Below, piece after piece: positions 23,198 to 64,000 of a stretch of DNA of 64,000 bases. A program made the translations under genes and the position numbers. The stretch lies in contig OZ024744.1 of assembly GCA_964016885.1 (NCBI GenBank), positions 10,230,001-10,294,000 on the forward strand. The letters run 5' to 3'. A model generated the notes under the pieces. It was given only the letters and a program-made list of their open reading frames with translations. It was not told the origin of the DNA and did no database searches. Source of the DNA: Eledone cirrhosa (taxonomy: Eukaryota). The first letter of the stretch is position 1. Every line of letters begins with the position of its first letter.

Positions 23198-26100
23198 TTG
23201 TGCTGTTATACTCCAATATGTTGTGTTGTTGTACTCCAATATGTTGTGTTGTTATACTCCAATATGTTGTGTTGTGATACTCCAAAGTGTTGTGCTATTG
23301 TACTCCAATATGTTGTGTTGTTTTACTCCAATAGGTTGCGTTGTTGTACTCCAATCTGTTGTGTTGTTATACTCCAATATGTTGTGTTGTTATACTCCAA
23401 TATGGTGTGTTGTTTTACTCCAATATGTTGTGTTGTTGCAATCCAATATGTTTGTGTTGTTTTACTCCAATATGTTGTGTTGTTATACTCAAATATGTTG
23501 TGTTGTTGTACTCCAATATGGTGTGTTGTTGTACTCCAATATGTTGTGTTGTTGTACTCCAATATGTTGTGTTGTTATACTCCAATATGTTGTGTTGGTG
23601 TACTCCAATATGTTGTGCTGTTGAACTCCAAATCTCGTGTTGTTATACTCCAATGTGTTGTGTTGTTATACTCCAATATGTTGTGTTGTTGTACTCCAAT
23701 ATGTTGTGTTGTTGTACTCCAATATGTTGTGTTGTTGTACTCCAATATGTTGTGTTGTTGTACTCCAATATGTCATGTTATACTCCAATATGTCATGTTG
23801 TTTTACTCCAATATGTTGTGTTGTTGCACTCCAATATGTCGTGTTGTTGTACTCCAATATGTTGTGTTGTTGTACTGCAATATGTTGTGTTGTTATACTC
23901 CAATATGCTGTGCTGTTGTACTCCAATATGTTGTGTTGTACTCCAATATGTTGTGTTGTTGTACTCCAATATATCATGTTGTCGTACTCCAATATGTCAT
24001 GTTATACTCCAATATGTCGTTGTTATACTCCAATATGTCATGTTGCTGTACTCCAATATGTCGTGTTGTTGTACTCCAATATGTTTTGATGTTGTACTCC
24101 AATATGTTGTGTTGTTGTACTCCAATATGTTGTGTTGTTATACTCCAATATGTTGTGCTGTTGTACTCCAATATGTCAGGTTGTTGTACTCCGATATTTC
24201 GTGTTGTTCTACTCCAATATTTCATGTTGTTTTACTCCAATATGTCGTGGTGTTGTACTCCAATATGTTTTGATGTTGTACTCCAATATGTCGTGTTGTT
24301 GTACTCCAATATGTTGTGTTGTTCAACTCCAATATGCTGTGTTGTTATACTCCTATATGTTGTGTTGTTGTACTCCAATATGTTGTGTTGTACTCCAATA
24401 TGTTGTGTTGTTATACTCCACAATGTTGTGTTGTTGTACTCCAATAGGTTGTGTTGTTGTACTCCAATATGTGATGTTGTTGTACTCCAATATGTCGTAT
24501 TGTTGTACTCCAATATGTTGTGTTGTTATACTCCAATATTTCGTGTTGTTTTACTCCAATATGTCATGTTGTTGTACTCCAATATCTCGTGTTGTTGTAC
24601 TCCAATATGTAATGGTGTTCTACTTCAATATGTCGTATTGTTGTACTCCAATATGTTGTATTGTTGTTCTCCAATATGTCGTGTTGTTATACTCCAATAT
24701 GTTATGATGTTGTACTCCAATATATTGTGTTGTTGTACTCCAATATGTTGTGTTGTTGTATTCAATACGCTGTGTTGTTGTACTCCAATATGTTGTGTTG
24801 TTGTACTCCAATATGTAGTTGTACTCCAATATGTTGTGTTGTTGTACTCCAATATGTTGTGTTGTTATACTCCAATATGTATTGTTGTTGTAATCCAATA
24901 TGTTGTGTTGTACTCCAATATATAATGTTGTTGTACTCCAATATGTTGTGTTGTTGTACTCCGATATGTTGTGCTGTTGTACTCCAATATGTTGTGTTAT
25001 TGTACTCCAATATGTTGTGTTGTTGTACTCCAATACGTTATGTTGTTGTACTCCAATATTTAGTGCTGTTATACTCCAATATGTTGTGTTGTTATACTCC
25101 AAAAAGTTGTGTTGTTTTACTCCAATATGTTGTGTTGTTATACTCCAGTATGTTGTGTTGTTGTACTCCAATATGTTGTGCTGTTGTACTCCAATATGTC
25201 AGGTTGTTGTACTCCGATATTTCGTGTTGTTCTACTCCAATATTTCGTGTTGTTTTACTCCAATATGTCGTGGTGTTGTACTCCAATATGTTTTGATGTT
25301 GTACTCCAATATGTCGTGTTGTTGTACTCCAATATGTTGTGTTGTTGAACTCCAATATGCTGTGTTGTTATACTCCTAAATGTTGTGTTGTTGTACTCCA
25401 ATATGTTGTGTTGTACTCCAATATGTTGTGTTGTTACACTCCACAATGTTGTGTTGTTGTACTCCAAAATGTGATGTTGCTGTACTCCAATATGTCGTAT
25501 TGTTGTACTCCAATATGTTGTGTTGTTATACTCCAATATTTCGTGTTGTTTTACTCCAATGTCATGTTGTTGTACTCCAATATTTCGTGTTGTTGTACTC
25601 TAATATGTCATGTTGTTGTACTCCAATATTTCGTGTTGTTGTGCTCCAATATGTCATGGTGTTGTACTTCAATATGTCGTATTGTTGTACTCCAGTATGT
25701 TATGATGTTGTACTCCAATATATTGTGTTGTTGTACTCCAATATGTTGTGTTGTTATACTCCAATATGTTGTGTTATTTTACTCCAATATGTTGTGTTGT
25801 TGTACTCCAATATGTTGTGTTGTTGTACTCCAATATGTTGTGTTGTTGTAATCCAATATCTTGTGTTGTTGTACTCCAATATGTTGTGTTGTTGTTCTCC
25901 AATATGTTGTGTTGTTATACTCCAATATGTTGTGTTGTGATACTCCAATATGTTGTGCTGTTGTACTCCAATATGTGTTGTTGTTGTACTCCAATATGTT
26001 GCGTTGCTGTACTCCAATATATCATGTTGTCGTACTCCAATATGTCATGTTATACTCCAATATGTTTTGATGCTGTACTCCAATATGTCGTGTTGTTGTA

Positions 26101-27961
26101 CTACAATATCTTGTGTTGTTGTACTCCAATATGTTGTTTTTTGTACTCCAATATGTCATGTTGTTGTACTCCAGTATGTCTTGTTATACTCCAATATGTC
26201 GTGCTGCTGTACTCCAATATGTCATGATGTTGTACTCCAATATGTTTTGCTGTTGTACTCCAATATGTTGTGTTGCTGTACTCCAATATGTTGTGTTGTT
26301 GTACTCCAATATGTTGTGTTGTTGTAATCCAATATCTTGTGTTGTTATACTCCAATATGTTGTGTTGTTATACTCCAATATGTTGTGTTGTGATACTCCA
26401 ATATGTTGTGCTGTTGTACTCCAATATGTTGAGTTGTTATACTCCAATATGTAGTGTTGTTATACTCCAATATGTTGTGTTGTTGTACTCCAATCTGTTG
26501 TGTTATACTCCAATATTTTGTGTTGTTATACTGCAATATGTTGTGTTGTTATACTCCAATATGTTGTGTTGTTATACTCCAAGATGTTGTGCTGTGATAC
26601 TCTAATATGTTGTGTTTTTGTACTCCAATATGTTGTGTTGTACTCCAATATGTTGTGTTGTTATACTCCAATATGCTGTGCTGTTGTACTCCAATATGTT
26701 GTGTTGTACTCCAATATGTTGTGTTGTTGTACTCCAATATATCATGTTGTCGTACTCCAATATGTCATGTTATACTCCAATATGTCGTTGTTATACTCCA
26801 ATATGTCATGTTGCTGTACTCCAATATGTCGTGTTGTTGTACTCCAATATGTTTTGATGTTGTACTCCAATATGTTGTGTTGTTGTACTCCAATATGTTG
26901 TGTTGTTATACTCCAATATGTTGTGCTGTTGTACTCCAATATGTCAGGTTGTTGTACTCCGATATTTCGTGTTGTTCTACTCCAATATTTCATGTTGTTT
27001 TACTCCAATATGTCGTGGTGTTGTACTCCAATATGTTTTGATGTTGTACTCCAATATGTCGTGTTGTTGTACTCCAATATGTTGTGTTGTTGAACTCCAA
27101 TATGCTGTGTTGTTATACTCCTATATGTTGTGTTGTTGTACTCCAATATGTTGTGTTGTACTCCAATATGTTGTGTTGTTATACTCCACAATGTTGTGTT
27201 GTTGTACTCCAATAGGTTATGTTGTTGTACTCCAATATGTGATGTTGTTGTACTCCAATATGTTGTGTTGCTGTACTCCAATATGTTGTGTTGTTGTTCT
27301 CCAATATGTCGTGTTGTTATACTCCAATATGTTGTGTTATGATACTCCAATATGTTGTGCTGTTGTACTCCAATATGTTGTGTTGTTGTACTCCAATATG
27401 TTGTGTTGTTATACTCCAATATGTTGTGTTGTTATACTCCAATATGTAGTGTTGTTATACTCCAATATGTTGTGTTGTTGTACTCCAATCTGTTGTGCTG
27501 CTGTACTCCAATATATTGTGTTATACTCCAATATGTTGTGTTGTTGTACTCCAATATGTTGTGTTGTTGTAATCCAAAATGTTGTGTTGTTATACTCCAA
27601 TATGTTGTGTTGTAATACTCCAATATGTTGTGCTCCAATATGTTGTCTTATACTCCAATGTGTTGTGTTCTTGTACTCCAATATGAAGTGTTGTAATACT
27701 CCAATATGTAGTGCTGTTGTTATACTCCAATATGTTGTGTTATAATCCAATGTGTTGTGTTGTTGTACTCCAATCTGTTGTGTTGTTATACTCCAATCTG
27801 TTGTGTTGTTATACTGCAATATGTTGTGTTGTTATACTCCAATATGTTGTGTTGTTATACTCCAAGATGTTGTGCTGTGATACTCTAATATGTTGTGTTT
27901 TTGTACTCCAATATGTTGTGTTGTTGTACTCCAATATGCTGTGTTGTTGTAATCCAATATC
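23198..27961 (+). repeat. HOR type A, copy 1 (4,764 bp)
   Basis: Anchored on the recurring MCCYTPICC...DTPKCC ORF start; carries the 575-codon ORF form. Confidence 0.9.
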
Positions 27962-30900
27962 TTGTGCTGTTATACTCCAATATGTTGTGTTGTTGTACTC
28001 CAATATGTTGTGTTGTTATACTCCAATATGTTGTGTTGTGATACTCCAAAGTGTTGTGCTATTGTACTCCAATATGTTGTGTTGTTTTACTCCAATAGGT
28101 TGCGTTGTTGTACTCCAATCTGTTGTGTTGTTATACTCCAATATGTTGTGTTGTTATACTCCAATATGGTGTGTTGTTTTACTCCAATATGTTGTGTTGT
28201 TGCAATCCAATATGTTTGTGTTGTTTTACTCCAATATGTTGTGTTGTTATACTCAAATATGTTGTGTTGTTGTACTCCAATATGGTGTGTTGTTGTACTC
28301 CAATATGTTGTGTTGTTGTACTCCAATATGTTGTGTTGTTATACTCCAATATGTTGTGTTGGTGTACTCCAATATGTTGTGCTGTTGAACTCCAAATCTC
28401 GTGTTGTTATACTCCAATGTGTTGTGTTGTTATACTCCAATATGTTGTGTTGTTGTACTCCAATATGTTGTGTTGTTGTACTCCAATATGTTGTGTTGTT
28501 GTACTCCAATATGTTGTGTTGTTGTACTCCAATATGTCATGTTATACTCCAATATGTCATGTTGTTTTACTCCAATATGTTGTGTTGTTGCACTCCAATA
28601 TGTCGTGTTGTTGTACTCCAATATGTTGTGTTGTTGTACTGCAATATGTTGTGTTGTTATACTCCAATATGCTGTGCTGTTGTACTCCAATATGTTGTGT
28701 TGTACTCCAATATGTTGTGTTGTTGTACTCCAATATATCATGTTGTCGTACTCCAATATGTCATGTTATACTCCAATATGTCGTTGTTATACTCCAATAT
28801 GTCATGTTGCTGTACTCCAATATGTCGTGTTGTTGTACTCCAATATGTTTTGATGTTGTACTCCAATATGTTGTGTTGTTGTACTCCAATATGTTGTGTT
28901 GTTATACTCCAATATGTTGTGCTGTTGTACTCCAATATGTCAGGTTGTTGTACTCCGATATTTCGTGTTGTTCTACTCCAATATTTCATGTTGTTTTACT
29001 CCAATATGTCGTGGTGTTGTACTCCAATATGTTTTGATGTTGTACTCCAATATGTCGTGTTGTTGTACTCCAATATGTTGTGTTGTTCAACTCCAAAATG
29101 CTGTGTTGTTATACTCCTATATGTTGTGTTGTTGTACTCCAATATGTTGTGTTGTACTCCAATATGTTGTGTTGTTATACTCCACAATGTTGTGTTGTTG
29201 TACTCCAATAGGTTGTGTTGTTGTACTCCAATATCTCGTGTTGTTGTACTCCAATATGTAATGGTGTTCTACTTCAATATGTCGTATTGTTGTACTCCAA
29301 TATGTTGTATTGTTGTTCTCCAATATGTCGTGTTGTTATACTCCAATATGTTATGATGTTGTACTCCAATATATTGTGTTGTTGTACTCCAATATGTTGT
29401 GTTGTTGTATTCAATACGCTGTGTTGTTGTACTCCAATATGTTGTGTTGTTGTACTCCAATATGTAGTTGTACTCCAATATGTTGTGTTGTTGTACTCCA
29501 ATATGTTGTGTTGTTATACTCCAATATGTATTGTTGTTGTAATCCAATATGTTGTGTTGTACTCCAATATATAATGTTGTTGTACTCCAATATGTTGTGT
29601 TGTTGTACTCCGATATGTTGTGCTGTTGTACTCCAATATGTTGTGTTATTGTACTCCAATATGTTGTGTTGTTATACTCCAATACGTTATGTTGTTGTAC
29701 TCCAATATTTAGTGCTGTTATACTCCAATATGTTGTGTTGTTATACTCCAAAAAGTTGTGTTGTTTTACTCCAATATGTTGTGTTGTTATACTCCAGTAT
29801 GTTGTGTTGTTGTACTCCAATATGTTGTGCTGTTGTACTCCAATATGTCAGGTTGTTGTACTCCGATATTTCGTGTTGTTCTACTCCAATATTTCGTGTT
29901 GTTTTACTCCAATATGTCGTGGTGTTGTACTCCAATATGTTTTGATGTTGTACTCCAATATGTCGTGTTGTTGTACTCCAATATGTTGTGTTATTGTACT
30001 CCAATATGCTGTGTTGTTATACTCCTAAATGTTGTGTTGTTGTACTCCAATATGTTGTGTTGTACTCCAATATGTTGTGTTGTTACACTCCACAATGTTG
30101 TGTTGTTGTACTCCAAAATGTGATGTTGCTGTACTCCAATATGTCGTATTGTTGTACTCCAATATGTTGTGTTGTTATACTCCAATATTTCGTGTTGTTT
30201 TACTCCAATGTCATGTTGTTGTACTCCAATATTTCGTGTTGTTGTACTCTAATATGTCATGTTGTTGTACTCCAATATTTCGTGTTGTTGTACTCCAATA
30301 TGTCATGGTGTTGTACTTCAATATGTCGTATTGTTGTACTCCAGTATGTTATGATGTTGTACTCCAATATATTGTGTTGTTGTACTCCAATATGTTGTGT
30401 TGTTATACTCCAATATGTTGTGTTATTTTACTCCAATATGTTGTGTTGTTGTACTCCAATATGTTGTGTTGTTGTACTCCAATATGTTGTGTTGTTGTAA
30501 TCCAATATCTTGTGTTGTTGTACTCCAATATGTTGTGTTGTTGTTCTCCAATATGTTGTGTTGTTATACTCCAATATGTTGTGTTGTGATACTCCAATAT
30601 GTTGTGCTGTTGTACTCCAATATGTGTTGTTGTTGTACTCCAATATGTTGCGTTGCTGTACTCCAATATATCATGTTGTCGTACTCCAATATGTCATGTT
30701 ATACTCCAATATGTTTTGATGCTGTACTCCAATATGTCGTGTTGTTGTACTACAATATCTTGTGTTGTTGTACTCCAATATGTTGTTTTTTGTACTCCAA
30801 TATGTCATGTTGTTGTACTCCAGTATGTCTTGTTATACTCCAATATGTCGTGCTGCTGTACTCCAATATGTCATGATGTTGTACTCCAATATGTTTTGCT

Positions 30901-31327
30901 GTTGTACTCCAATATGTTGTGTTGCTGTACTCCAATATGTTGTGTTGTTGTACTCCAATATGTTGTGTTGTTGTAATCCAATATCTTGTGTTGTTATACT
31001 CCAATATGTTGTGTTGTTATACTCCAATATGTTGTGTTGTGATACTCCAATATGTTGTGCTGTTGTACTCCAATATGTTGAGTTGTTATACTCCAATATG
31101 TAGTGTTGTTATACTCCAATATGTTGTGTTGTTGTACTCCAATCTGTTGTGTTATACTCCAATATTTTGTGTTGTTATACTGCAATATGTTGTGTTGTTA
31201 TACTCCAATATGTTGTGTTGTTATACTCCAAGATGTTGTGCTGTGATACTCTAATATGTTGTGTTTTTGTACTCCAATATGTTGTGTTGTTGTACTCCAA
31301 TATGTTGTGTTGTTGTAATCCAATATC
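27962..31327 (+). repeat. HOR type B, copy 1 (3,366 bp)
   Basis: Lacks 115 bp near 29,225 and the 1,283-bp terminal sub-block; carries the diagnostic GTTATTGTACTCCAATATGCT at ~29,990. Confidence 0.9.
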
Positions 31328-34300
31328 TTGTGCTGTTATACTCCAATATGTTGTGTTGTTGTACTCCAATATGTTGTGTTGTTATACTCCAATATGTTGT
31401 GTTGTGATACTCCAAAGTGTTGTGCTGTTGTACTCCAATATGTTGTGTTGTTTTACTCCAATAGGTTGCGTTGTTGTACTCCAATCTGTTGTGTTGTTAT
31501 ACTCCAATATGTTGTGTTGTTATACTCCAATATGGTGTGTTGTTTTACTCCAATATGTTGTGTTGTTGCAATCCAATATGTTTGTGTTGTTTTACTCCAA
31601 TATGTTGTGTTGTTATACTCAAATATGTTGTGTTGTTGTACTCCAATATGGTGTGTTGTTGTACTCCAATATGTTGTGTTGTTGTACTCCAATATGTTGT
31701 GTTGTTATACTCCAATATGTTGTGTTGGTGTACTCCAATATGTTGTGCTGTTGAACTCCAAATCTCGTGTTGTTATACTCCAATGTGTTGTGTTGTTATA
31801 CTCCAATATGTTGTGTTGTTGTACTCCAATATGTTGTGTTGTTGTACTCCAATATGTTGTGTTGTTGTACTCCAATATGTTGTGTTGTTGTACTCCAATA
31901 TGTCATGTTATACTCCAATATGTCATGTTGTTTTACTCCAATATGTTGTGTTGTTGCACTCCAATATGTCGTGTTGTTGTACTCCAATATGTTGTGTTGT
32001 TGTACTGCAATATGTTGTGTTGTTATACTCCAATATGCTGTGCTGTTGTACTCCAATATGTTGTGTTGTACTCCAATATGTTGTGTTGTTGTACTCCAAT
32101 ATATCATGTTGTCGTACTCCAATATGTCATGTTATACTCCAATATGTCGTTGTTATACTCCAATATGTCATGTTGCTGTACTCCAATATGTCGTGTTGTT
32201 GTACTCCAATATGTTTTGATGTTGTACTCCAATATGTTGTGTTGTTGTACTCCAATATGTTGTGTTGTTATACTCCAATATGTTGTGCTGTTGTACTCCA
32301 ATATGTCAGGTTGTTGTACTCCGATATTTCGTGTTGTTCTACTCCAATATTTCATGTTGTTTTACTCCAATATGTCGTGGTGTTGTACTCCAATATGTTT
32401 TGATGTTGTACTCCAATATGTCGTGTTGTTGTACTCCAATATGTTGTGTTGTTCAACTCCAAAATGCTGTGTTGTTATACTCCTATATGTTGTGTTGTTG
32501 TACTCCAATATGTTGTGTTGTACTCCAATATGTTGTGTTGTTATACTCCACAATGTTGTGTTGTTGTACTCCAATAGGTTGTGTTGTTGTACTCCAATAT
32601 CTCGTGTTGTTGTACTCCAATATGTAATGGTGTTCTACTTCAATATGTCGTATTGTTGTACTCCAATATGTTGTATTGTTGTTCTCCAATATGTCGTGTT
32701 GTTATACTCCAATATGTTATGATGTTGTACTCCAATATATTGTGTTGTTGTACTCCAATATGTTGTGTTGTTGTATTCAATACGCTGTGTTGTTGTACTC
32801 CAATATGTTGTGTTGTTGTACTCCAATATGTAGTTGTACTCCAATATGTTGTGTTGTTGTACTCCAATATGTTGTGTTGTTATACTCCAATATGTATTGT
32901 TGTTGTAATCCAATATGTTGTGTTGTACTCCAATATATAATGTTGTTGTACTCCAATATGTTGTGTTGTTGTACTCCGATATGTTGTGCTGTTGTACTCC
33001 AATATGTTGTGTTATTGTACTCCAATATGTTGTGTTGTTGTACTCCAATACGTTATGTTGTTGTACTCCAATATTTAGTGCTGTTATACTCCAATATGTT
33101 GTGTTGTTATACTCCAAAAAGTTGTGTTGTTTTACTCCAATATGTTGTGTTGTTATACTCCAGTATGTTGTGTTGTTGTACTCCAATATGTTGTGCTGTT
33201 GTACTCCAATATGTCAGGTTGTTGTACTCCGATATTTCGTGTTGTTCTACTCCAATATTTCGTGTTGTTTTACTCCAATATGTCGTGGTGTTGTACTCCA
33301 ATATGTTTTGATGTTGTACTCCAATATGTCGTGTTGTTGTACTCCAATATGTTGTGTTGTTGAACTCCAATATGCTGTGTTGTTATACTCCTAAATGTTG
33401 TGTTGTTGTACTCCAATATGTTGTGTTGTACTCCAATATGTTGTGTTGTTACACTCCACAATGTTGTGTTGTTGTACTCCAAAATGTGATGTTGCTGTAC
33501 TCCAATATGTCGTATTGTTGTACTCCAATATGTTGTGTTGTTATACTCCAATATTTCGTGTTGTTTTACTCCAATGTCATGTTGTTGTACTCCAATATTT
33601 CGTGTTGTTGTACTCTAATATGTCATGTTGTTGTACTCCAATATTTCGTGTTGTTGTACTCCAATATGTCATGGTGTTGTACTTCAATATGTCGTATTGT
33701 TGTACTCCAGTATGTTATGATGTTGTACTCCAATATATTGTGTTGTTGTACTCCAATATGTTGTGTTGTTATACTCCAATATGTTGTGTTATTTTACTCC
33801 AATATGTTGTGTTGTTGTACTCCAATATGTTGTGTTGTTGTACTCCAATATGTTGTGTTGTTGTAATCCAATATCTTGTGTTGTTGTACTCCAATATGTT
33901 GTGTTGTTGTTCTCCAATATGTTGTGTTGTTATACTCCAATATGTTGTGTTGTGATACTCCAATATGTTGTGCTGTTGTACTCCAATATGTGTTGTTGTT
34001 GTACTCCAATATGTTGCGTTGCTGTACTCCAATATATCATGTTGTCGTACTCCAATATGTCATGTTATACTCCAATATGTTTTGATGTTATACTCCAATA
34101 TGTTTTGATGCTGTACTCCAATATGTCGTGTTGTTGTACTACAATATCTTGTGTTGTTGTACTCCAATATGTTGTTTTTTGTACTCCAATATGTCATGTT
34201 GTTGTACTCCAGTATGTCTTGTTATACTCCAATATGTCGTGCTGCTGTACTCCAATATGTCATGATGTTGTACTCCAATATGTTTTGCTGTTGTACTCCA

Positions 34301-47100: not shown

Positions 47101-48327
47101 CAATATATCATGTTGTCGTACTCCAATATGTCATGTTATACTCCAATATGTCGTTGTTATACTCCAATATGTCATGTTGCTGTACTCCAATATGTCGTGT
47201 TGTTGTACTCCAATATGTTTTGATGTTGTACTCCAATATGTTGTGTTGTTGTACTCCAATATGTTGTGTTGTTATACTCCAATATGTTGTGCTGTTGTAC
47301 TCCAATATGTCAGGTTGTTGTACTCCGATATTTCGTGTTGTTCTACTCCAATATTTCATGTTGTTTTACTCCAATATGTCGTGGTGTTGTACTCCAATAT
47401 GTTTTGATGTTGTACTCCAATATGTCGTGTTGTTGTACTCCAATATGTTGTGTTGTTGAACTCCAATATGCTGTGTTGTTATACTCCTATATGTTGTGTT
47501 GTTGTACTCCAATATGTTGTGTTGTACTCCAATATGTTGTGTTGTTATACTCCACAATGTTGTGTTGTTGTACTCCAATAGGTTATGTTGTTGTACTCCA
47601 ATATGTGATGTTGTTGTACTCCAATATGTTGTGTTGCTGTACTCCAATATGTTGTGTTGTTGTTCTCCAATATGTCGTGTTGTTATACTCCAATATGTTG
47701 TGTTATGATACTCCAATATGTTGTGCTGTTGTACTCCAATATGTTGTGTTGTTGTACTCCAATATGTTGTGTTGTTATACTCCAATATGTTGTGTTGTTA
47801 TACTCCAATATGTAGTGTTGTTATACTCCAATATGTTGTGTTGTTGTACTCCAATCTGTTGTGCTGCTGTACTCCAATATATTGTGTTATACTCCAATAT
47901 GTTGTGTTGTTGTACTCCAATATGTTGTGTTGTTGTAATCCAAAATGTTGTGTTGTTATACTCCAATATGTTGTGTTGTAATACTCCAATATGTTGTGCT
48001 CCAATATGTTGTGTTATACTCCAATGTGTTGTGTTCTTGTACTCCAATATGAAGTGTTGTAATACTCCAATATGTAGTGCTGTTGTTATACTCCAATATG
48101 TTGTGTTATAATCCAATGTGTTGTGTTGTTGTACTCCAATCTGTTGTGTTGTTATACTCCAATCTGTTGTGTTGTTATACTGCAATATGTTGTGTTGTTA
48201 TACTCCAATATGTTGTGTTGTTATACTCCAAGATGTTGTGCTGTGATACTCTAATATGTTGTGTTTTTGTACTCCAATATGTTGTGTTGTTGTACTCCAA
48301 TATGCTGTGTTGTTGTAATCCAATATC
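44130..48327 (+). repeat. HOR type C, copy 2 (4,198 bp = 4,649 - 23 - 428)
   Basis: One monomer lost at ~44,300 and a 428-bp deletion at ~45,545. Confidence 0.9.
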
Positions 48328-51300: not shown

Positions 51301-53091
51301 CCAGTATGTCTTGTTATACTCCAATATGTCGTGCTGCTGTACTCCAATATGTCATGATGTTGTACTCCAATATGTTTTGCTGTTGTACTCCAATATGTTG
51401 TGTTGCTGTACTCCAATATGTTGTGTTGTTGTACTCCAATATGTTGTGTTGTTGTAATCCAATATCTTGTGTTGTTATACTCCAATATGTTGTGTTGTTA
51501 TACTCCAATATGTTGTGTTGTGATACTCCAATATGTTGTGCTGTTGTACTCCAATATGTTGAGTTGTTATACTCCAATATGTAGTGTTGTTATACTCCAA
51601 TATGTTGTGTTGTTGTACTCCAATCTGTTGTGTTATACTCCAATATTTTGTGTTGTTATACTGCAATATGTTGTGTTGTTATACTCCAATATGTTGTGTT
51701 GTTATACTCCAAGATGTTGTGCTGTGATACTCTAATATGTTGTGTTTTTGTACTCCAATATGTTGTGTTGTACTCCAATATGTTGTGTTGTTATACTCCA
51801 ATATGCTGTGCTGTTGTACTCCAATATGTTGTGTTGTACTCCAATATGTTGTGTTGTTGTACTCCAATATATCATGTTGTCGTACTCCAATATGTCATGT
51901 TATACTCCAATATGTCGTTGTTATACTCCAATATGTCATGTTGCTGTACTCCAATATGTCGTGTTGTTGTACTCCAATATGTTTTGATGTTGTACTCCAA
52001 TATGTTGTGTTGTTGTACTCCAATATGTTGTGTTGTTATACTCCAATATGTTGTGCTGTTGTACTCCAATATGTCAGGTTGTTGTACTCCGATATTTCGT
52101 GTTGTTCTACTCCAATATTTCATGTTGTTTTACTCCAATATGTCGTGGTGTTGTACTCCAATATGTTTTGATGTTGTACTCCAATATGTCGTGTTGTTGT
52201 ACTCCAATATGTTGTGTTGTTGAACTCCAATATGCTGTGTTGTTATACTCCTATATGTTGTGTTGTTGTACTCCAATATGTTGTGTTGTACTCCAATATG
52301 TTGTGTTGTTATACTCCACAATGTTGTGTTGTTGTACTCCAATAGGTTATGTTGTTGTACTCCAATATGTGATGTTGTTGTACTCCAATATGTTGTGTTG
52401 CTGTACTCCAATATGTTGTGTTGTTGTTCTCCAATATGTCGTGTTGTTATACTCCAATATGTTGTGTTATGATACTCCAATATGTTGTGCTGTTGTACTC
52501 CAATATGTTGTGTTGTTGTACTCCAATATGTTGTGTTGTTATACTCCAATATGTTGTGTTGTTATACTCCAATATGTAGTGTTGTTATACTCCAATATGT
52601 TGTGTTGTTGTACTCCAATCTGTTGTGCTGCTGTACTCCAATATATTGTGTTATACTCCAATATGTTGTGTTGTTGTACTCCAATATGTTGTGTTGTTGT
52701 AATCCAAAATGTTGTGTTGTTATACTCCAATATGTTGTGTTGTAATACTCCAATATGTTGTGCTCCAATATGTTGTGTTATACTCCAATGTGTTGTGTTC
52801 TTGTACTCCAATATGAAGTGTTGTAATACTCCAATATGTAGTGCTGTTGTTATACTCCAATATGTTGTGTTATAATCCAATGTGTTGTGTTGTTGTACTC
52901 CAATCTGTTGTGTTGTTATACTCCAATCTGTTGTGTTGTTATACTGCAATATGTTGTGTTGTTATACTCCAATATGTTGTGTTGTTATACTCCAAGATGT
53001 TGTGCTGTGATACTCTAATATGTTGTGTTTTTGTACTCCAATATGTTGTGTTGTTGTACTCCAATATGCTGTGTTGTTGTAATCCAATATC
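48328..53091 (+). repeat. HOR type A, copy 3 (4,764 bp)
   Basis: 575-codon ORF form; 12,328 bp from A2. Confidence 0.9.
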
Positions 53092-56000
53092 TTGTGCTGT
53101 TATACTCCAATATGTTGTGTTGTTGTACTCCAATATGTTGTGTTGTTATACTCCAATATGTTGTGTTGTGATACTCCAAAGTGTTGTGCTATTGTACTCC
53201 AATATGTTGTGTTGTTTTACTCCAATAGGTTGCGTTGTTGTACTCCAATCTGTTGTGTTGTTATACTCCAATATGTTGTGTTGTTATACTCCAATATGGT
53301 GTGTTGTTTTACTCCAATATGTTGTGTTGTTGCAATCCAATATGTTTGTGTTGTTTTACTCCAATATGTTGTGTTGTTATACTCAAATATGTTGTGTTGT
53401 TGTACTCCAATATGGTGTGTTGTTGTACTCCAATATGTTGTGTTGTTGTACTCCAATATGTTGTGTTGTTATACTCCAATATGTTGTGTTGGTGTACTCC
53501 AATATGTTGTGCTGTTGAACTCCAAATCTCGTGTTGTTATACTCCAATGTGTTGTGTTGTTATACTCCAATATGTTGTGTTGTTGTACTCCAATATGTTG
53601 TGTTGTTGTACTCCAATATGTTGTGTTGTTGTACTCCAATATGTTGTGTTGTTGTACTCCAATATGTCATGTTATACTCCAATATGTCATGTTGTTTTAC
53701 TCCAATATGTTGTGTTGTTGCACTCCAATATGTCGTGTTGTTGTACTCCAATATGTTGTTTTGTTGTACTGCAATATGTTGTGTTGTTATACTCCAATAT
53801 GCTGTGCTGTTGTACTCCAATATGTTGTGTTGTACTCCAATATGTTGTGTTGTTGTACTCCAATATATCATGTTGTCGTACTCCAATATGTCATGTTATA
53901 CTCCAATATGTCGTTGTTATACTCCAATATGTCATGTTGCTGTACTCCAATATGTCGTGTTGTTGTACTCCAATATGTTTTGATGTTGTACTCCAATATG
54001 TTGTGTTGTTGTACTCCAATATGTTGTGTTGTTATACTCCAATATGTTGTGCTGTTGTACTCCAATATGTCAGGTTGTTGTACTCCGATATTTCGTGTTG
54101 TTCTACTCCAATATTTCATGTTGTTTTACTCCAATATGTCGTGGTGTTGTACTCCAATATGTTTTGATGTTGTACTCCAATATGTCGTGTTGTTGTACTC
54201 CAATATGTTGTGTTGTTCAACTCCAAAATGCTGTGTTGTTATACTCCTATATGTTGTGTTGTTGTACTCCAATATGTTGTGTTGTACTCCAATATGTTGT
54301 GTTGTTATACTCCACAATGTTGTGTTGTTGTACTCCAATAGGTTGTGTTGTTGTACTCCAATATCTCGTGTTGTTGTACTCCAATATGTAATGGTGTTCT
54401 ACTTCAATATGTCGTATTGTTGTACTCCAATATGTTGTATTGTTGTTCTCCAATATGTCGTGTTGTTATACTCCAATATGTTATGATGTTGTACTCCAAT
54501 ATATTGTGTTGTTGTACTCCAATATGTTGTGTTGTTGTATTCAATACGCTGTGTTGTTGTACTCCAATATGTTGTGTTGTTGTACTCCAATATGTAGTTG
54601 TACTCCAATATGTTGTGTTGTTGTACTCCAATATGTTGTGTTGTTATACTCCAATATGTATTGTTGTTGTAATCCAATATGTTGTGTTGTACTCCAATAT
54701 ATAATGTTGTTGTACTCCAATATGTTGTGTTGTTGTACTCCGATATGTTGTGCTGTTGTACTCCAATATGTTGTGTTATTGTACTCCAATATGTTGTGTT
54801 GTTATACTCCAATACGTTATGTTGTTGTACTCCAATATTTAGTGCTGTTATACTCCAATATGTTGTGTTGTTATACTCCAAAAAGTTGTGTTGTTTTACT
54901 CCAATATGTTGTGTTGTTATACTCCAGTATGTTGTGTTGTTGTACTCCAATATGTTGTGCTGTTGTACTCCAATATGTCAGGTTGTTGTACTCCGATATT
55001 TCGTGTTGTTCTACTCCAATATTTCGTGTTGTTTTACTCCAATATGTCGTGGTGTTGTACTCCAATATGTTTTGATGTTGTACTCCAATATGTCGTGTTG
55101 TTGTACTCCAATATGTTGTGTTATTGTACTCCAATATGCTGTGTTGTTATACTCCTAAATGTTGTGTTGTTGTACTCCAATATGTTGTGTTGTACTCCAA
55201 TATGTTGTGTTGTTACACTCCACAATGTTGTGTTGTTGTACTCCAAAATGTGATGTTGCTGTACTCCAATATGTCGTATTGTTGTACTCCAATATGTTGT
55301 GTTGTTATACTCCAATATTTCGTGTTGTTTTACTCCAATGTCATGTTGTTGTACTCCAATATTTCGTGTTGTTGTACTCTAATATGTCATGTTGTTGTAC
55401 TCCAATATTTCGTGTTGTTGTACTCCAATATGTCATGGTGTTGTACTTCAATATGTCGTATTGTTGTACTCCAGTATGTTATGATGTTGTACTCCAATAT
55501 ATTGTGTTGTTGTACTCCAATATGTTGTGTTGTTATACTCCAATATGTTGTGTTATTTTACTCCAATATGTTGTGTTGTTGTACTCCAATATGTTGTGTT
55601 GTTGTACTCCAATATGTTGTGTTGTTGTAATCCAATATCTTGTGTTGTTGTACTCCAATATGTTGTGTTGTTGTTCTCCAATATGTTGTGTTGTTATACT
55701 CCAATATGTTGTGTTGTGATACTCCAATATGTTGTGCTGTTGTACTCCAATATGTGTTGTTGTTGTACTCCAATATGTTGCGTTGCTGTACTCCAATATA
55801 TCATGTTGTCGTACTCCAATATGTCATGTTATACTCCAATATGTTTTGATGCTGTACTCCAATATGTCGTGTTGTTGTACTACAATATCTTGTGTTGTTG
55901 TACTCCAATATGTTGTTTTTTGTACTCCAATATGTCATGTTGTTGTACTCCAGTATGTCTTGTTATACTCCAATATGTCGTGCTGCTGTACTCCAATATG

Positions 56001-56457
56001 TCATGATGTTGTACTCCAATATGTTTTGCTGTTGTACTCCAATATGTTGTGTTGCTGTACTCCAATATGTTGTGTTGTTGTACTCCAATATGTTGTGTTG
56101 TTGTAATCCAATATCTTGTGTTGTTATACTCCAATATGTTGTGTTGTTATACTCCAATATGTTGTGTTGTGATACTCCAATATGTTGTGCTGTTGTACTC
56201 CAATATGTTGAGTTGTTATACTCCAATATGTAGTGTTGTTATACTCCAATATGTTGTGTTGTTGTACTCCAATCTGTTGTGTTATACTCCAATATTTTGT
56301 GTTGTTATACTGCAATATGTTGTGTTGTTATACTCCAATATGTTGTGTTGTTATACTCCAAGATGTTGTGCTGTGATACTCTAATATGTTGTGTTTTTGT
56401 ACTCCAATATGTTGTGTTGTTGTACTCCAATATGTTGTGTTGTTGTAATCCAATATC
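53092..56457 (+). repeat. HOR type B, copy 3 (3,366 bp)
   Basis: B diagnostics at ~55,120; shares the GTTGTTTTGTTGTACTGC variant with B2. Confidence 0.9.
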
Positions 56458-59400
56458 TTGTGCTGTTATACTCCAATATGTTGTGTTGTTGTACTCCAAT
56501 ATGTTGTGTTGTTATACTCCAATATGTTGTGTTGTGATACTCCAAAGTGTTGTGCTGTTGTACTCCAATATGTTGTGTTGTTTTACTCCAATAGGTTGCG
56601 TTGTTGTACTCCAATCTGTTGTGTTGTTATACTCCAATATGTTGTGTTGTTATACTCCAATATGGTGTGTTGTTTTACTCCAATATGTTGTGTTGTTGCA
56701 ATCCAATATGTTTGTGTTGTTTTACTCCAATATGTTGTGTTGTTATACTCAAATATGTTGTGTTGTTGTACTCCAATATGGTGTGTTGTTGTACTCCAAT
56801 ATGTTGTGTTGTTGTACTCCAATATGTTGTGTTGTTATACTCCAATATGTTGTGTTGGTGTACTCCAATATGTTGTGCTGTTGAACTCCAAATCTCGTGT
56901 TGTTATACTCCAATGTGTTGTGTTGTTATACTCCAATATGTTGTGTTGTTGTACTCCAATATGTTGTGTTGTTGTACTCCAATATGTTGTGTTGTTGTAC
57001 TCCAATATGTTGTGTTGTTGTACTCCAATATGTCATGTTATACTCCAATATGTCATGTTGTTTTACTCCAATATGTTGTGTTGTTGCACTCCAATATGTC
57101 GTGTTGTTGTACTCCAATATGTTGTGTTGTTGTACTGCAATATGTTGTGTTGTTATACTCCAATATGCTGTGCTGTTGTACTCCAATATGTTGTGTTGTA
57201 CTCCAATATGTTGTGTTGTTGTACTCCAATATATCATGTTGTCGTACTCCAATATGTCATGTTATACTCCAATATGTCGTTGTTATACTCCAATATGTCA
57301 TGTTGCTGTACTCCAATATGTCGTGTTGTTGTACTCCAATATGTTTTGATGTTGTACTCCAATATGTTGTGTTGTTGTACTCCAATATGTTGTGTTGTTA
57401 TACTCCAATATGTTGTGCTGTTGTACTCCAATATGTCAGGTTGTTGTACTCCGATATTTCGTGTTGTTCTACTCCAATATTTCATGTTGTTTTACTCCAA
57501 TATGTCGTGGTGTTGTACTCCAATATGTTTTGATGTTGTACTCCAATATGTCGTGTTGTTGTACTCCAATATGTTGTGTTGTTCAACTCCAAAATGCTGT
57601 GTTGTTATACTCCTATATGTTGTGTTGTTGTACTCCAATATGTTGTGTTGTACTCCAATATGTTGTGTTGTTATACTCCACAATGTTGTGTTGTTGTACT
57701 CCAATAGGTTGTGTTGTTGTACTCCAATATCTCGTGTTGTTGTACTCCAATATGTAATGGTGTTCTACTTCAATATGTCGTATTGTTGTACTCCAATATG
57801 TTGTATTGTTGTTCTCCAATATGTCGTGTTGTTATACTCCAATATGTTATGATGTTGTACTCCAATATATTGTGTTGTTGTACTCCAATATGTTGTGTTG
57901 TTGTATTCAATACGCTGTGTTGTTGTACTCCAATATGTTGTGTTGTTGTACTCCAATATGTAGTTGTACTCCAATATGTTGTGTTGTTGTACTCCAATAT
58001 GTTGTGTTGTTATACTCCAATATGTATTGTTGTTGTAATCCAATATGTTGTGTTGTACTCCAATATATAATGTTGTTGTACTCCAATATGTTGTGTTGTT
58101 GTACTCCGATATGTTGTGCTGTTGTACTCCAATATGTTGTGTTATTGTACTCCAATATGTTGTGTTGTTGTACTCCAATACGTTATGTTGTTGTACTCCA
58201 ATATTTAGTGCTGTTATACTCCAATATGTTGTGTTGTTATACTCCAAAAAGTTGTGTTGTTTTACTCCAATATGTTGTGTTGTTATACTCCAGTATGTTG
58301 TGTTGTTGTACTCCAATATGTTGTGCTGTTGTACTCCAATATGTCAGGTTGTTGTACTCCGATATTTCGTGTTGTTCTACTCCAATATTTCGTGTTGTTT
58401 TACTCCAATATGTCGTGGTGTTGTACTCCAATATGTTTTGATGTTGTACTCCAATATGTCGTGTTGTTGTACTCCAATATGTTGTGTTGTTGAACTCCAA
58501 TATGCTGTGTTGTTATACTCCTAAATGTTGTGTTGTTGTACTCCAATATGTTGTGTTGTACTCCAATATGTTGTGTTGTTACACTCCACAATGTTGTGTT
58601 GTTGTACTCCAAAATGTGATGTTGCTGTACTCCAATATGTCGTATTGTTGTACTCCAATATGTTGTGTTGTTATACTCCAATATTTCGTGTTGTTTTACT
58701 CCAATGTCATGTTGTTGTACTCCAATATTTCGTGTTGTTGTACTCTAATATGTCATGTTGTTGTACTCCAATATTTCGTGTTGTTGTACTCCAATATGTC
58801 ATGGTGTTGTACTTCAATATGTCGTATTGTTGTACTCCAGTATGTTATGATGTTGTACTCCAATATATTGTGTTGTTGTACTCCAATATGTTGTGTTGTT
58901 ATACTCCAATATGTTGTGTTATTTTACTCCAATATGTTGTGTTGTTGTACTCCAATATGTTGTGTTGTTGTACTCCAATATGTTGTGTTGTTGTAATCCA
59001 ATATCTTGTGTTGTTGTACTCCAATATGTTGTGTTGTTGTTCTCCAATATGTTGTGTTGTTATACTCCAATATGTTGTGTTGTGATACTCCAATATGTTG
59101 TGCTGTTGTACTCCAATATGTGTTGTTGTTGTACTCCAATATGTTGCGTTGCTGTACTCCAATATATCATGTTGTCGTACTCCAATATGTCATGTTATAC
59201 TCCAATATGTTTTGATGCTGTACTCCAATATGTCGTGTTGTTGTACTACAATATCTTGTGTTGTTGTACTCCAATATGTTGTTTTTTGTACTCCAATATG
59301 TCATGTTGTTGTACTCCAGTATGTCTTGTTATACTCCAATATGTCGTGCTGCTGTACTCCAATATGTCATGATGTTGTACTCCAATATGTTTTGCTGTTG

Positions 59401-61514
59401 TACTCCAATATGTTGTGTTGCTGTACTCCAATATGTTGTGTTGTTGTACTCCAATATGTTGTGTTGTTGTAATCCAATATCTTGTGTTGTTATACTCCAA
59501 TATGTTGTGTTGTTATACTCCAATATGTTGTGTTGTGATACTCCAATATGTTGTGCTGTTGTACTCCAATATGTTGAGTTGTTATACTCCAATATGTAGT
59601 GTTGTTATACTCCAATATGTTGTGTTGTTGTACTCCAATCTGTTGTGTTATACTCCAATATTTTGTGTTGTTATACTGCAATATGTTGTGTTGTTATACT
59701 CCAATATGTTGTGTTGTTATACTCCAAGATGTTGTGCTGTGATACTCTAATATGTTGTGTTTTTGTACTCCAATATGTTGTGTTGTACTCCAATATGTTG
59801 TGTTGTTATACTCCAATATGCTGTGCTGTTGTACTCCAATATGTTGTGTTGTACTCCAATATGTTGTGTTGTTGTACTCCAATATATCATGTTGTCGTAC
59901 TCCAATATGTCATGTTATACTCCAATATGTCGTTGTTATACTCCAATATGTCATGTTGCTGTACTCCAATATGTCGTGTTGTTGTACTCCAATATGTTTT
60001 GATGTTGTACTCCAATATGTTGTGTTGTTGTACTCCAATATGTTGTGTTGTTATACTCCAATATGTTGTGCTGTTGTACTCCAATATGTCAGGTTGTTGT
60101 ACTCCGATATTTCGTGTTGTTCTACTCCAATATTTCATGTTGTTTTACTCCAATATGTCGTGGTGTTGTACTCCAATATGTTTTGATGTTGTACTCCAAT
60201 ATGTCGTGTTGTTGTACTCCAATATGTTGTGTTGTTGAACTCCAATATGCTGTGTTGTTATACTCCTATATGTTGTGTTGTTGTACTCCAATATGTTGTG
60301 TTGTACTCCAATATGTTGTGTTGTACTCCAATATGTTGTGTTGTTATACTCCACAATGTTGTGTTGTTGTACTCCAATAGGTTATGTTGTTGTACTCCAA
60401 TATGTGATGTTGTTGTACTCCAATATGTTGTGTTGCTGTACTCCAATATGTTGTGTTGTTGTTCTCCAATATGTCGTGTTGTTATACTCCAATATGTTGT
60501 GTTATGATACTCCAATATGTTGTGCTGTTGTACTCCAATATGTTGTGTTGTTGTACTCCAATATGTTGTGTTGTTATACTCCAATATGTTGTGTTGTTAT
60601 ACTCCAATATGTAGTGTTGTTATACTCCAATATGTTGTGTTGTTGTACTCCAATCTGTTGTGCTGCTGTACTCCAATATATTGTGTTATACTCCAATATG
60701 TTGTGTTGTTGTACTCCAATATGTTGTGTTGTTGTAATCCAAAATGTTGTGTTGTTATACTCCAATATGTTGTGTTGTAATACTCCAATATGTTGTGCTC
60801 CAATATGTTGTGTTATACTCCAATGTGTTGTGTTCTTGTACTCCAATATGAAGTGTTGTAATACTCCAATATGTAGTGCTGTTGTTATACTCCAATATGT
60901 TGTGTTATAATCCAATGTGTTGTGTTGTTGTACTCCAATCTGTTGTGTTGTTATACTCCAATCTGTTGTGTTGTTATACTGCAATATGTTGTGTTGTTAT
61001 ACTCCAATATGTTGTGTTGTTATACTCCAAGATGTTGTGCTGTGATACTCTAATATGTTGTGTTTTTGTACTCCAATATGTTGTGTTGTTGTACTCCAAT
61101 ATGCTGTGTTGTTGTAATCCAATATCTTGTGCTGTTATACTCCAATATGTTGTGTTGTTGTACTCCAATATGTTGTGTTGTTATACTCCAATATGTTGTG
61201 TTGTTATACTCCAATATGGTGTGTTGTTTTACTCCAATATGTTGCGTTGTTGTACTCCAATCTGTTGTGTTGTTATACTCCAATATGTTGTGTTATAATC
61301 CAATGTGTTGTGTTGTTGTACTCCAATCTGTTGTGTTGTTATACTCCAATCTGTTGTGTTGTTATACTGCAATATGTTGTGTTGTTATACTCCAATATGT
61401 TGTGTTGTTATACTCCAAGATGTTGTGCTGTGATACTCTAATATGTTGTGTTTTTGTACTCCAATATGTTGTGTTGTTGTACTCCAATATGCTGTGTTGT
61501 TGTAATCCAATATC
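56458..61514 (+). repeat. HOR type C, copy 3 (5,057 bp = 4,649 + 20 + 388)
   Basis: Extra 20-bp monomer at ~60,300 and a 388-bp complex duplication near 60,905-61,295. Confidence 0.9.
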
Positions 61515-64000
61515 TTGTGCTGTTATACTCCAATATGTTGTGTTGTTGTACTCCAATATGTTGTGTTGTTATACTCCAATATGTTGTGTTGTGATACTCC
61601 AAAGTGTTGTGCTATTGTACTCCAATATGTTGTGTTGTTTTACTCCAATAGGTTGCGTTGTTGTACTCCAATCTGTTGTGTTGTTATACTCCAATATGTT
61701 GTGTTGTTATACTCCAATATGGTGTGTTGTTTTACTCCAATATGTTGTGTTGTTGCAATCCAATATGTTTGTGTTGTTTTACTCCAATATGTTGTGTTGT
61801 TATACTCAAATATGTTGTGTTGTTGTACTCCAATATGGTGTGTTGTTGTACTCCAATATGTTGTGTTGTTGTACTCCAATATGTTGTGTTGTTATACTCC
61901 AATATGTTGTGTTGGTGTACTCCAATATGTTGTGCTGTTGAACTCCAAATCTCGTGTTGTTATACTCCAATGTGTTGTGTTGTTATACTCCAATATGTTG
62001 TGTTGTTGTACTCCAATATGTTGTGTTGTTGTACTCCAATATGTTGTGTTGTTGTACTCCAATATGTTGTGTTGTTGTACTCCAATATGTCATGTTATAC
62101 TCCAATATGTCATGTTGTTTTACTCCAATATGTTGTGTTGTTGCACTCCAATATGTCGTGTTGTTGTACTCCAATATGTTGTGTTGTTGTACTGCAATAT
62201 GTTGTGTTGTTATACTCCAATATGCTGTGCTGTTGTACTCCAATATGTTGTGTTGTACTCCAATATGTTGTGTTGTTGTACTCCAATATATCATGTTGTC
62301 GTACTCCAATATGTCATGTTATACTCCAATATGTCGTTGTTATACTCCAATATGTCATGTTGCTGTACTCCAATATGTCGTGTTGTTGTACTCCAATATG
62401 TTTTGATGTTGTACTCCAATATGTTGTGTTGTTGTACTCCAATATGTTGTGTTGTTATACTCCAATATGTTGTGCTGTTGTACTCCAATATGTCAGGTTG
62501 TTGTACTCCGATATTTCGTGTTGTTCTACTCCAATATTTCATGTTGTTTTACTCCAATATGTCGTGGTGTTGTACTCCAATATGTTTTGATGTTGTACTC
62601 CAATATGTCGTGTTGTTGTACTCCAATATGTTGTGTTGTTCAACTCCAAAATGCTGTGTTGTTATACTCCTATATGTTGTGTTGTTGTACTCCAATATGT
62701 TGTGTTGTACTCCAATATGTTGTGTTGTTATACTCCACAATGTTGTGTTGTTGTACTCCAATAGGTTGTGTTGTTGTACTCCAATATGTGATGTTGTTGT
62801 ACTCCAATATGTCGTATTGTTGTACTCCAATATGTTGTGTTGTTATACTCCAATATTTCGTGTTGTTTTACTCCAATATGTCATGTTGTTGTACTCCAAT
62901 ATCTCGTGTTGTTGTACTCCAATATGTAATGGTGTTCTACTTCAATATGTCGTATTGTTGTACTCCAATATGTTGTATTGTTGTTCTCCAATATGTCGTG
63001 TTGTTATACTCCAATATGTTATGATGTTGTACTCCAATATATTGTGTTGTTGTACTCCAATATGTTGTGTTGTTGTATTCAATACGCTGTGTTGTTGTAC
63101 TCCAATATGTTGTGTTGTTGTACTCCAATATGTAGTTGTACTCCAATATGTTGTGTTGTTGTACTCCAATATGTTGTGTTGTTATACTCCAATATGTATT
63201 GTTGTTGTAATCCAATATGTTGTGTTGTACTCCAATATATAATGTTGTTGTACTCCAATATGTTGTGTTGTTGTACTCCGATATGTTGTGCTGTTGTACT
63301 CCAATATGTTGTGTTATTGTACTCCAATATGTTGTGTTGTTGTACTCCAATACGTTATGTTGTTGTACTCCAATATTTAGTGCTGTTATACTCCAATATG
63401 TTGTGTTGTTATACTCCAAAAAGTTGTGTTGTTTTACTCCAATATGTTGTGTTGTTATACTCCAGTATGTTGTGTTGTTGTACTCCAATATGTTGTGCTG
63501 TTGTACTCCAATATGTCAGGTTGTTGTACTCCGATATTTCGTGTTGTTCTACTCCAATATTTCGTGTTGTTTTACTCCAATATGTCGTGGTGTTGTACTC
63601 CAATATGTTTTGATGTTGTACTCCAATATGTCGTGTTGTTGTACTCCAATATGTTGTGTTGTTGAACTCCAATATGCTGTGTTGTTATACTCCTAAATGT
63701 TGTGTTGTTGTACTCCAATATGTTGTGTTGTACTCCAATATGTTGTGTTGTTACACTCCACAATGTTGTGTTGTTGTACTCCAAAATGTGATGTTGCTGT
63801 ACTCCAATATGTCGTATTGTTGTACTCCAATATGTTGTGTTGTTATACTCCAATATTTCGTGTTGTTTTACTCCAATGTCATGTTGTTGTACTCCAATAT
63901 TTCGTGTTGTTGTACTCTAATATGTCATGTTGTTGTACTCCAATATTTCGTGTTGTTGTACTCCAATATGTCATGGTGTTGTACTTCAATATGTCGTATT
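61515..64000 (+). repeat. HOR type A, copy 4 (partial, cut by the window end)
   Basis: 575-codon ORF form at 61515..63242; 13,187 bp from A3. Confidence 0.9.

What the first reader, a model, noticed from the sequence alone, without database searches (positions are those of the whole stretch)
23198..64000. Three-tier hierarchy: 23-bp monomer -> ~4.76-kb HOR -> ABC super-HOR of 12.3-13.2 kb
Seen: spacings between equivalent anchors are 4764, 3366, 4672, 4764, 3366, 4198, 4764, 3366 and 5057 bp. Types A, B and C therefore recur in strict order, with super-unit lengths 12,802, 12,328 and 13,187 bp. Every deviation in C is accounted for by a visible indel. Knowledge: HORs characterise primate alpha-satellite, where a unit usually holds a few to a few dozen 171-bp monomers. 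Inference: a HOR of about 210 minisatellite-sized monomers, and a super-HOR of about 550, implies recent amplification of multi-kb blocks in an actively turning-over array. This would fit a centromeric or telomere-associated satellite that may be uncharacterised.
Basis: partly seen in the sequence, partly recalled or inferred. Interest (0 to 1): 0.75.

Follow-up and report, generated by a model that had tools for sequence, protein, structure and literature searches.

The report
Young nested duplications in octopod satellite
The repeating A-B-C pattern is real but repeats only six times, covering 76 kb of a 1.69-million-base array of one 23-base repeat found at a single place in a likely octopus genome, and it is likely the ordinary trace of about four recent duplications rather than a fixed centromere unit.

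Summary
All nine spacings are exact. A (210 monomers), B (148) and C (185-223) are near-identical variants of one 4,764-bp unit; every indel is whole monomers. The order is local. ABC recurs six times over 76 kb, 4.6% of a gap-free 1.69-Mb array that holds all 7,739 genome-wide copies of a 35-mer probe. Other parts of the array have their own periods of about 2.5-38 kb. Shared variants fit about four overlapping in-register duplications (inferred). The host is likely an octopod. A centromere role is untested and unlikely: the satellite sits on one chromosome only. It is not telomeric. The architecture matches published nested tandem repeats (human DYZ1), human superHORs and local plant HORs. 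The scan already reported this array 638 kb downstream (e1-10309920) with the same reading. The monomer itself was not found in print. Verdict: real, ordinary in kind, low interest.

The parts
1..64000 (+). Unbroken 23-bp satellite, about 2,800 monomers, 176 distinct monomer sequences, mean 92.4% identity to consensus. Part of the array G000:C28:10,159,654-11,849,368.
1..22726 (+). Older, more rearranged relatives of the same unit (anchor spacings 4,997, 5,026, 3,392, 8,352); not in ABC order
22727..23300 (+). Left edge of the ABC-register homology (the match at distance 12,802 starts at 22,727)
23301..28064 (+). A1, 4,764 bp, 210 monomers; three private substitutions
28065..31430 (+). B1, 3,366 bp, 148 monomers; lacks the 115-bp piece of A and a further 1,283 bp; five B-type substitutions
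31431..36102 (+). C1, 4,672 bp, 206 monomers (A minus 115, plus one monomer)
36103..48430 (+). ABC2: A2 4,764, B2 3,366, C2 4,198 (C2 has deletions of 23 and 428 bp)
48431..61617 (+). ABC3: A3 4,764, B3 3,366, C3 5,057 (C3 has insertions of 20 and 388 bp)
61618..64000 (+). Start of A4. ABC4-6 (12,328, 13,187, 12,411 bp) continue to window-equivalent 99,543.
36429..62110 (+). First copy of the fourth tier: 25,682 bp repeated with zero mismatches 25,515 bp further on; the junction lies at 61,944-62,110

Best explanation
The ABC pattern is a six-copy, 76-kb block inside a single-locus 1.69-Mb satellite of a likely octopod, and it likely records about four recent overlapping tandem duplications in ordinary heterochromatic satellite turnover rather than a functional fixed unit. 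Shown: A, B and C are one 4,764-bp unit and its deletion variants; ABC recurs six times; a perfect 25,515-bp duplication doubles two ABC copies; periods change along the array. Inferred, step 1 (seeding): out-of-register repair or template switching between any two in-phase monomers makes one-off duplications of 1.5-25 kb, needing about one monomer of homology. Inferred, step 2 (register locking): once A was triplicated and marked by deletions of 115 and 1,283 bp, the longest near-perfect homology lay at the ABC spacing (7.8-11.4 kb, against about 3-4 kb at single-unit spacing). Later homology-guided exchanges, by unequal sister or homologue exchange or by break-induced replication, therefore reused that spacing three times and its double once. 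Indels stay whole-monomer because each exchange occurs in monomer phase.
For: Variant table of 18 units: all six B units share five substitutions and one deletion, so B arose once and was copied. One substitution is shared by B2-B5, and a 20-bp insertion by C3, C5 and C6, which fits phase-shifted duplications. C2=C4, C3=C5, A3=A5 exactly. A's extra five monomers also occur in older units upstream, so A is the ancestral form. Beyond the A/B/C-defining changes the block holds 11 substitutions and 6 whole-monomer indels (counted). Whole array (73,228 monomers): 89% lie in a near-identical run of at least 40 monomers and 60% in one of at least 200. Dominant periods differ among the 27 bins of 64 kb, and shared 8-monomer words fall with distance. 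Of 34 candidate adjacent duplications 15 are complete; 8 of these 15 have junction homology of 11-25 bp, close to random in-phase pairs (median 12 bp, IQR 7-19). The 25,515-bp event has 167 bp exact, and at least 160 bp occurs in 0.24% of random pairs. Published parallels: periodicity varying 'hyper-locally' in HSat2/3, iterative tandem duplications in Yq12, local HORs unrelated to centromere position in maize.
Against: The ABC block is the most amplified part of the array: mean 10.6 and up to 16 near-identical copies of at least 100-monomer context, against means of 1.0-6.6 in 31 other bins and 3.5 and 6.5 in the two bins that overlap its edges. That could reflect selection rather than chance. 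The duplication count of four is a parsimony reading by hand; gene conversion could give the same variant sharing. The repair pathway cannot be read from one haplotype. Seven of 15 complete duplications have junction homology of 50 bp or more, and 2 of the 15 have internal indels that make the measure unreliable. No reads were examined.
Confidence: 0.8

Rival explanations
1. The ABC block is a nascent regimented HOR that carries, or was favoured by, the kinetochore of chromosome C28.
For: It is the most amplified zone of the array. In humans CENP-A commonly lies on the youngest, recently duplicated layers (passages of 10.1101/2021.07.12.452052). The array is megabase-sized and lies among other satellites sampled from 10.05 to 12.8 Mb.
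Against: The satellite is on one chromosome only: 7,739 of 7,739 35-mer and 18,733 of 18,735 16-mer matches, whereas sharing between chromosomes is a criterion of the centromere atlas. The block lies 94-170 kb from the array's edge, while HOR frequency peaks at array centres in that atlas. Identity to consensus is flat along the array (92.4-92.8%), so there is no layered decay. A later human study could not reject the null that kinetochores have no preference for young haplotypes (p = 0.092). Unchecked earlier notes place a multi-chromosome candidate centromere satellite near the other end of C28.
Confidence: 0.1
2. The top tier (the 25,515-bp duplication, hence ABC4-5) is an assembly artefact, so the true count is four ABC copies or some other number.
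For: Zero mismatches over 25,682 bp, which is longer than typical accurate long reads (recalled). Other near-perfect duplications of 16.9-21.8 kb exist in the array. No spanning reads were checked.
Against: There are no N gaps in the array. The junction joins a C carrying +388 bp to an A lacking the -388 deletion, with only 167 bp of exact overlap (843 bp with one mismatch). That is short for an assembler overlap, so the join was probably read directly (inference). ABC1, 2, 3 and 6 differ by private substitutions and indels, so the ABC tier itself cannot be a collapse or loop error.
Confidence: 0.1

Closest known systems
Human HSat2/HSat3 nested tandem repeats, including DYZ1 (10.1101/2021.07.12.452052 and 10.1101/2022.12.01.518724; passages read)
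   Same: A tiny monomer nested in a multi-kb unit (DYZ1 about 3.6 kb from a pentamer); periodicity varies along the array; iterative tandem duplications on top; heterochromatic.
   Different: Unrelated sequence and phylum. Here monomers remain discrete and countable (23 bp in 88% of cases), and the unit has under 20 near-identical copies rather than filling megabases.
Alpha-satellite superHORs (10.64898/2026.03.27.714900, passages; orangutan 58mer, PMC12428378, abstract)
   Same: Recurring combinations of 2-9 HOR variants repeated at least three times in a row; ABC x6 meets that working definition. Monomer types repeat within the unit (115 types in 210 monomers).
   Different: Monomer 23 bp rather than 171 bp; unit of 210 monomers rather than up to 84; covers 4.6% of the array rather than 33-51%; no CENP-A evidence.
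Heterogeneous, locally confined HORs of maize and Arabidopsis (PMC13011684, passages; centromere atlas 10.64898/2026.09.17.752431, abstract and passages)
   Same: Local patterns read as traces of breakage and out-of-register repair, with no link to the kinetochore position in maize.
   Different: Those patterns average about 4 monomers and 3 occurrences within about 10 kb; here units are 148-223 monomers and the block spans 76 kb.
Bovine 1.706 satellite (recalled; the search found no paper)
   Same: As recalled, a period of about 2.35 kb built from 23-bp subrepeats.
   Different: Sequence relationship not tested; that satellite is multi-chromosomal as recalled.

Membership tests
Regimented HOR array (primate alpha-satellite type) | Multi-monomer unit whose copies are far more alike than neighbouring monomers | tested here: met
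   A copies differ by 0-4 substitutions in 4,764 bp; monomers average 92.4% identity to consensus
Regimented HOR array (primate alpha-satellite type) | One unit repeated with long-range periodicity over most of the array | tested here: not met
   ABC covers 4.6% of the array; periods differ among 27 bins
SuperHOR (HG002 working definition) | An n-mer (n = 2-9) of HOR variants repeated at least three times in a row | tested here: met
   ABC x6; definition
Nested tandem repeat (HSat2/3 type) | Multi-kb period over a short ancestral repeat, varying along the array | tested here: met
Nested tandem repeat (HSat2/3 type) | Monomers no longer discrete units of similar length | tested here: not met
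   64,257 of 73,228 monomers are 23 bp; indels are whole monomers
Centromeric satellite | Long contiguous array in a repeat-rich region | tested here: met
   1.69 Mb with one 21-kb interruption; flanked by satellites and retroelement-like ORFs. Gene density was not measured.
Centromeric satellite | Shared by several chromosomes | tested here: not met
   7,739 of 7,739 and 18,733 of 18,735 exact probe matches lie in this array; diverged relatives would be missed
Centromeric satellite | Layered divergence, highest at the flanks | tested here: not met
   Identity to consensus 92.4-92.8% in all 17 bins
Centromeric satellite | CENP-A occupancy or location at the primary constriction | not testable with these tools
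   No chromatin or cytological data available
Telomere-associated satellite | Adjacent to a chromosome end or a telomeric repeat tract | tested here: not met
   10.16 Mb from the nearer scaffold end; at most 3 TTAGGG/CCCTAA per 50 kb in the array. The scaffold ends themselves lack telomere tracts in the 10 kb checked.

The most novel reading that the evidence does not exclude
The ABC block is a regimented higher-order repeat caught at birth. Homology-length register locking has made it the fastest-growing zone of a chromosome-specific array, and it holds the kinetochore of C28. That would give a sequence-defined cephalopod centromere built from a 23-bp monomer with 210-monomer units.
Probability: 0.08. 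Interest if true: 0.6.

Novelty: new member of a known kind. Interest (0 to 1): 0.22.

Why it matters
As it stands, this is a clean worked example of how higher-order structure arises in satellites. The short, variant-rich monomer lets every event be read: 11 substitutions, 6 whole-monomer indels and about 4 duplications of at least 12 kb. It also suggests two junction classes, short-homology seeding and long-homology reuse of a spacing. Differences between ABC copies (0-0.07%) are at or below within-species diversity reported for two octopus species (0.07% and 0.26%), so the block is predicted to vary between individuals, which is directly testable. It would matter more only if CENP-A sat on it: searches for cephalopod centromere satellites returned no dedicated study in their listings.

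Tried and rejected
Telomere link: rejected. Hairpin or secondary-structure role: one 100-nt stretch folds no better than shuffles (z = -0.57). Derivation of the 23-mer from neighbouring satellites: 108-bp unit P = 0.058 against 500 shuffles, 48-bp and 72-bp units P of 0.69 or more, so not shown. Rfam on 8 upstream loci: 0 matches. My interim idea that the base unit is 4,649 bp was dropped, because A's extra 115 bp is present in older units. Z-chromosome test with SPAG9-type domains was inconclusive: RH1 hits on C1 and C1420, no JIP_LZII hit. Sequencing runs: no RNA holder listed; six runs held 0.06-0.30 of the words, none was laid, and none is used as evidence. In one search, 9 of 34 rows have substitution counts inflated by internal indels and were not used for divergence. 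Literature: no paper holds the monomer motif and none was found for bovine 1.706. The centromere atlas main text has no mention of cephalopod, octopus or mollusc, but its supplementary tables could not be seen and may list this family. Dfam and Repbase were not available.

Full report
1. Observation. The window is one unbroken 23-bp satellite (about 2,807 copies). Decomposition gives 2,817 monomers of 176 sequences, 92.4% identical to consensus on average. Super-units are 12,802, 12,328 and 13,187 bp. Shuffling monomer order 100 times never gave a repeated run above 7 monomers; the real runs reach 1,160.

2. Anatomy of the block. A has 210 monomers, B 148 and C 185-223. Aligned monomer by monomer, all are one unit. 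B and C lack five monomers (115 bp) that A has. These five also occur in older units upstream, so A (4,764 bp) is ancestral. B lacks a further 1,283 bp and carries five substitutions common to all six B units. C varies only by whole-monomer indels and one substitution. A itself contains 115 monomer types and an internal 19-monomer repeat.

Beyond the window the series continues 4764, 3366, 4198, 4764, 3366, 5057, 4376, 3366, 4669 and then 4741, 4840, 5025. ABC therefore occurs six times, at C28:10,253,301-10,329,543. A fourth tier was missed: 25,682 bp match with no mismatch at a distance of 25,515 bp, so C2=C4, C3=C5 and A3=A5.

3. The whole array. The window is G000:C28:10,230,001-10,294,000, on a 136.5-Mb scaffold of a 2.996-Gb genome. 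I fetched the entire array, 10,159,654 to about 11,849,368: 73,228 monomers, no N, one 21-kb interruption. It holds 7,739 of 7,739 genome-wide matches to a 35-mer and 18,733 of 18,735 to a 16-mer, all in one orientation. Exact probes would miss diverged relatives.

ABC is 4.6% of the array. A's 6-monomer words are 95-100% present at 10.21-10.36 Mb, 34-41% in the flanking bins, and absent beyond about 10.61 Mb. The 27 bins of 64 kb have differing dominant periods from 2.5 to 37.8 kb. Young duplication is the rule: 89% of monomers lie in a near-identical run of at least 40 monomers and 60% in one of at least 200. The ABC block is, however, the most amplified zone, with a mean of 10.6 and a maximum of 16 copies. 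Identity to consensus is flat at 92.4-92.8%.

4. Host and setting. The genome has molluscan hemocyanin genes, with seven units in the two genes I counted. One unit scores 650-659 bits against 4yd9_C, 6r83 and 1js8_A, and at most 507 bits against the other entries whose single-unit scores were shown. That the top entries are cephalopod, and that seven units mark octopods, is recalled; the host is thus likely an octopod. The array abuts a 108-bp satellite, with 48-bp and 72-bp satellites further upstream, and other tandem repeats are sampled out to 12.8 Mb.

5. Mechanism (inferred). Apart from the changes that define A, B and C, the 18 units hold 11 substitutions and 6 indels (counted, leaving out two differences at the A6 deletion junction). 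One substitution is shared by B2-B5 and one 20-bp insertion by C3, C5 and C6. By hand, the shortest history is three duplications at ABC spacing with shifting end points, followed by the 25,515-bp one.

Junctions suggest two modes. Of 15 complete adjacent duplications among 34 candidates, 8 have 11-25 bp of junction homology, as random in-phase monomer pairs do (median 12 bp). These would seed new periods. The 25,515-bp event has 167 bp exact, and at least 160 bp occurs in 0.24% of random pairs, so it was homology-guided. Near-perfect matches run 7.8-11.4 kb at ABC spacing but only about 3-4 kb at single-unit spacing, which would favour reuse of the ABC spacing. A +388-bp insertion in C5 and a -388-bp deletion under 1 kb later in A6 cancel exactly, which looks like one out-of-register conversion tract. 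Unequal exchange and break-induced replication cannot be told apart from one haplotype.

Rough ages, by hand, use 2.4e-9 mutations per site per generation (passage of PMC13669787). ABC1 against ABC6 (8 substitutions in about 12.4 kb) gives about 130,000 generations, ABC2 against ABC3 (2) about 34,000, and the perfect duplication under about 24,000. Array mutation rates and assembly errors could shift these.

6. Artefact check. No reads were examined. ABC1, 2, 3 and 6 carry private variants, so that tier is sound. The perfect 25.5-kb tier is the weak point, though its junction overlap is short for an assembler join (inference).

7. Comparison with what is known. Multi-kb units over tiny monomers, with periods that vary hyper-locally, are described for HSat2/3 (10.1101/2021.07.12.452052, passages). 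DYZ1 is a 3.6-kb unit of a pentamer with iterative tandem duplications on top (10.1101/2022.12.01.518724, passages). SuperHORs are defined as 2-9 HOR variants repeated at least three times (10.64898/2026.03.27.714900, passages); ABC x6 meets that. A 58mer superHOR with repeated monomer types is known in orangutan (PMC12428378, abstract). Maize HORs are local and unrelated to kinetochore position (PMC13011684, passages). The 325-genome atlas finds both regimented and heterogeneous HORs common (10.64898/2026.09.17.752431, abstract and passages); its supplements were not visible. PMC10925132 (parts 1-2 of 5 read) was used only for the Z-chromosome lead. The monomer motif was in no searchable paper, and two searches on cephalopod centromere satellites listed no dedicated study.

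8. Verdict. It works like a nested tandem repeat or superHOR, but it is not a regimented array-wide HOR, it is not telomeric, and it is probably not this chromosome's centromere. The scan had already reported the same array further downstream with the same reading (e1-10309920); my reading was written down before I saw that note. It is a new member of a known kind; interest 0.22.

Noticed in passing
G000:C28:10,911,155-10,932,230 (L125-L127) against 11,849,368-11,878,898: The array's only interruption is a 21-kb copy of its own right flank: 7 substitutions and one 11-bp gap in 6,837 bp; its far end matches 11,877,576-11,878,898 at 99%, the downstream copy being about 8.5 kb longer. Only 27 monomers next to the two junctions match, 26 of them identical. 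Either a flank piece was copied about 0.94 Mb into the array, or a large duplication was followed by very fast turnover. Unexplained.
   Followed up: partly
window 61,199-61,587 and window-equivalent about 86,700-87,650 (L003): A +388-bp insertion in C3/C5 and a -388-bp deletion in A6 cancel exactly, suggesting one shifted gene-conversion tract that the 25.5-kb duplication junction later split.
   Followed up: partly
G000:C28:10,052,105-10,072,389 (L023-L025): Three tandem copies, about 6.2-6.4 kb each and 95-97% identical, of a retroelement-like unit with endonuclease- and reverse-transcriptase-like ORFs, each separated by tracts of a 72-bp repeat. It may be a target-specific LINE; the family label Tx1 is recalled, not tested.
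   Followed up: no
G000:C28:10,103,352-10,159,655 (L028-L033): A 108-bp AT-rich satellite abuts the 23-bp array with no spacer and holds an LTR-type element with 276-bp terminal repeats at about 10,104,730-10,109,630. Resemblance to the 23-mer is borderline (P = 0.058).
   Followed up: partly
G000:C28:10,081,941-10,103,327 and L060 (12,800,001): A 48-bp satellite occurs on both sides of the 23-bp array, 2.7 Mb apart, in the same orientation.
   Followed up: no
G000:C28:10,420,369-10,487,072; 11,268,939; 11,314,417 and 11,418,753: Other young duplications in the array: a 37,812-bp period, a perfect 21,823-bp tandem copy with 50 bp of junction homology, and 29-kb blocks repeated about 104 kb apart.
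   Followed up: partly
G000:C1:173.7-173.9 Mb, C26:21.9-22.0 Mb, C27:61-67 kb: At least five multi-unit hemocyanin gene copies, including an inverted pair on C26, plus two further units on C27.
   Followed up: no
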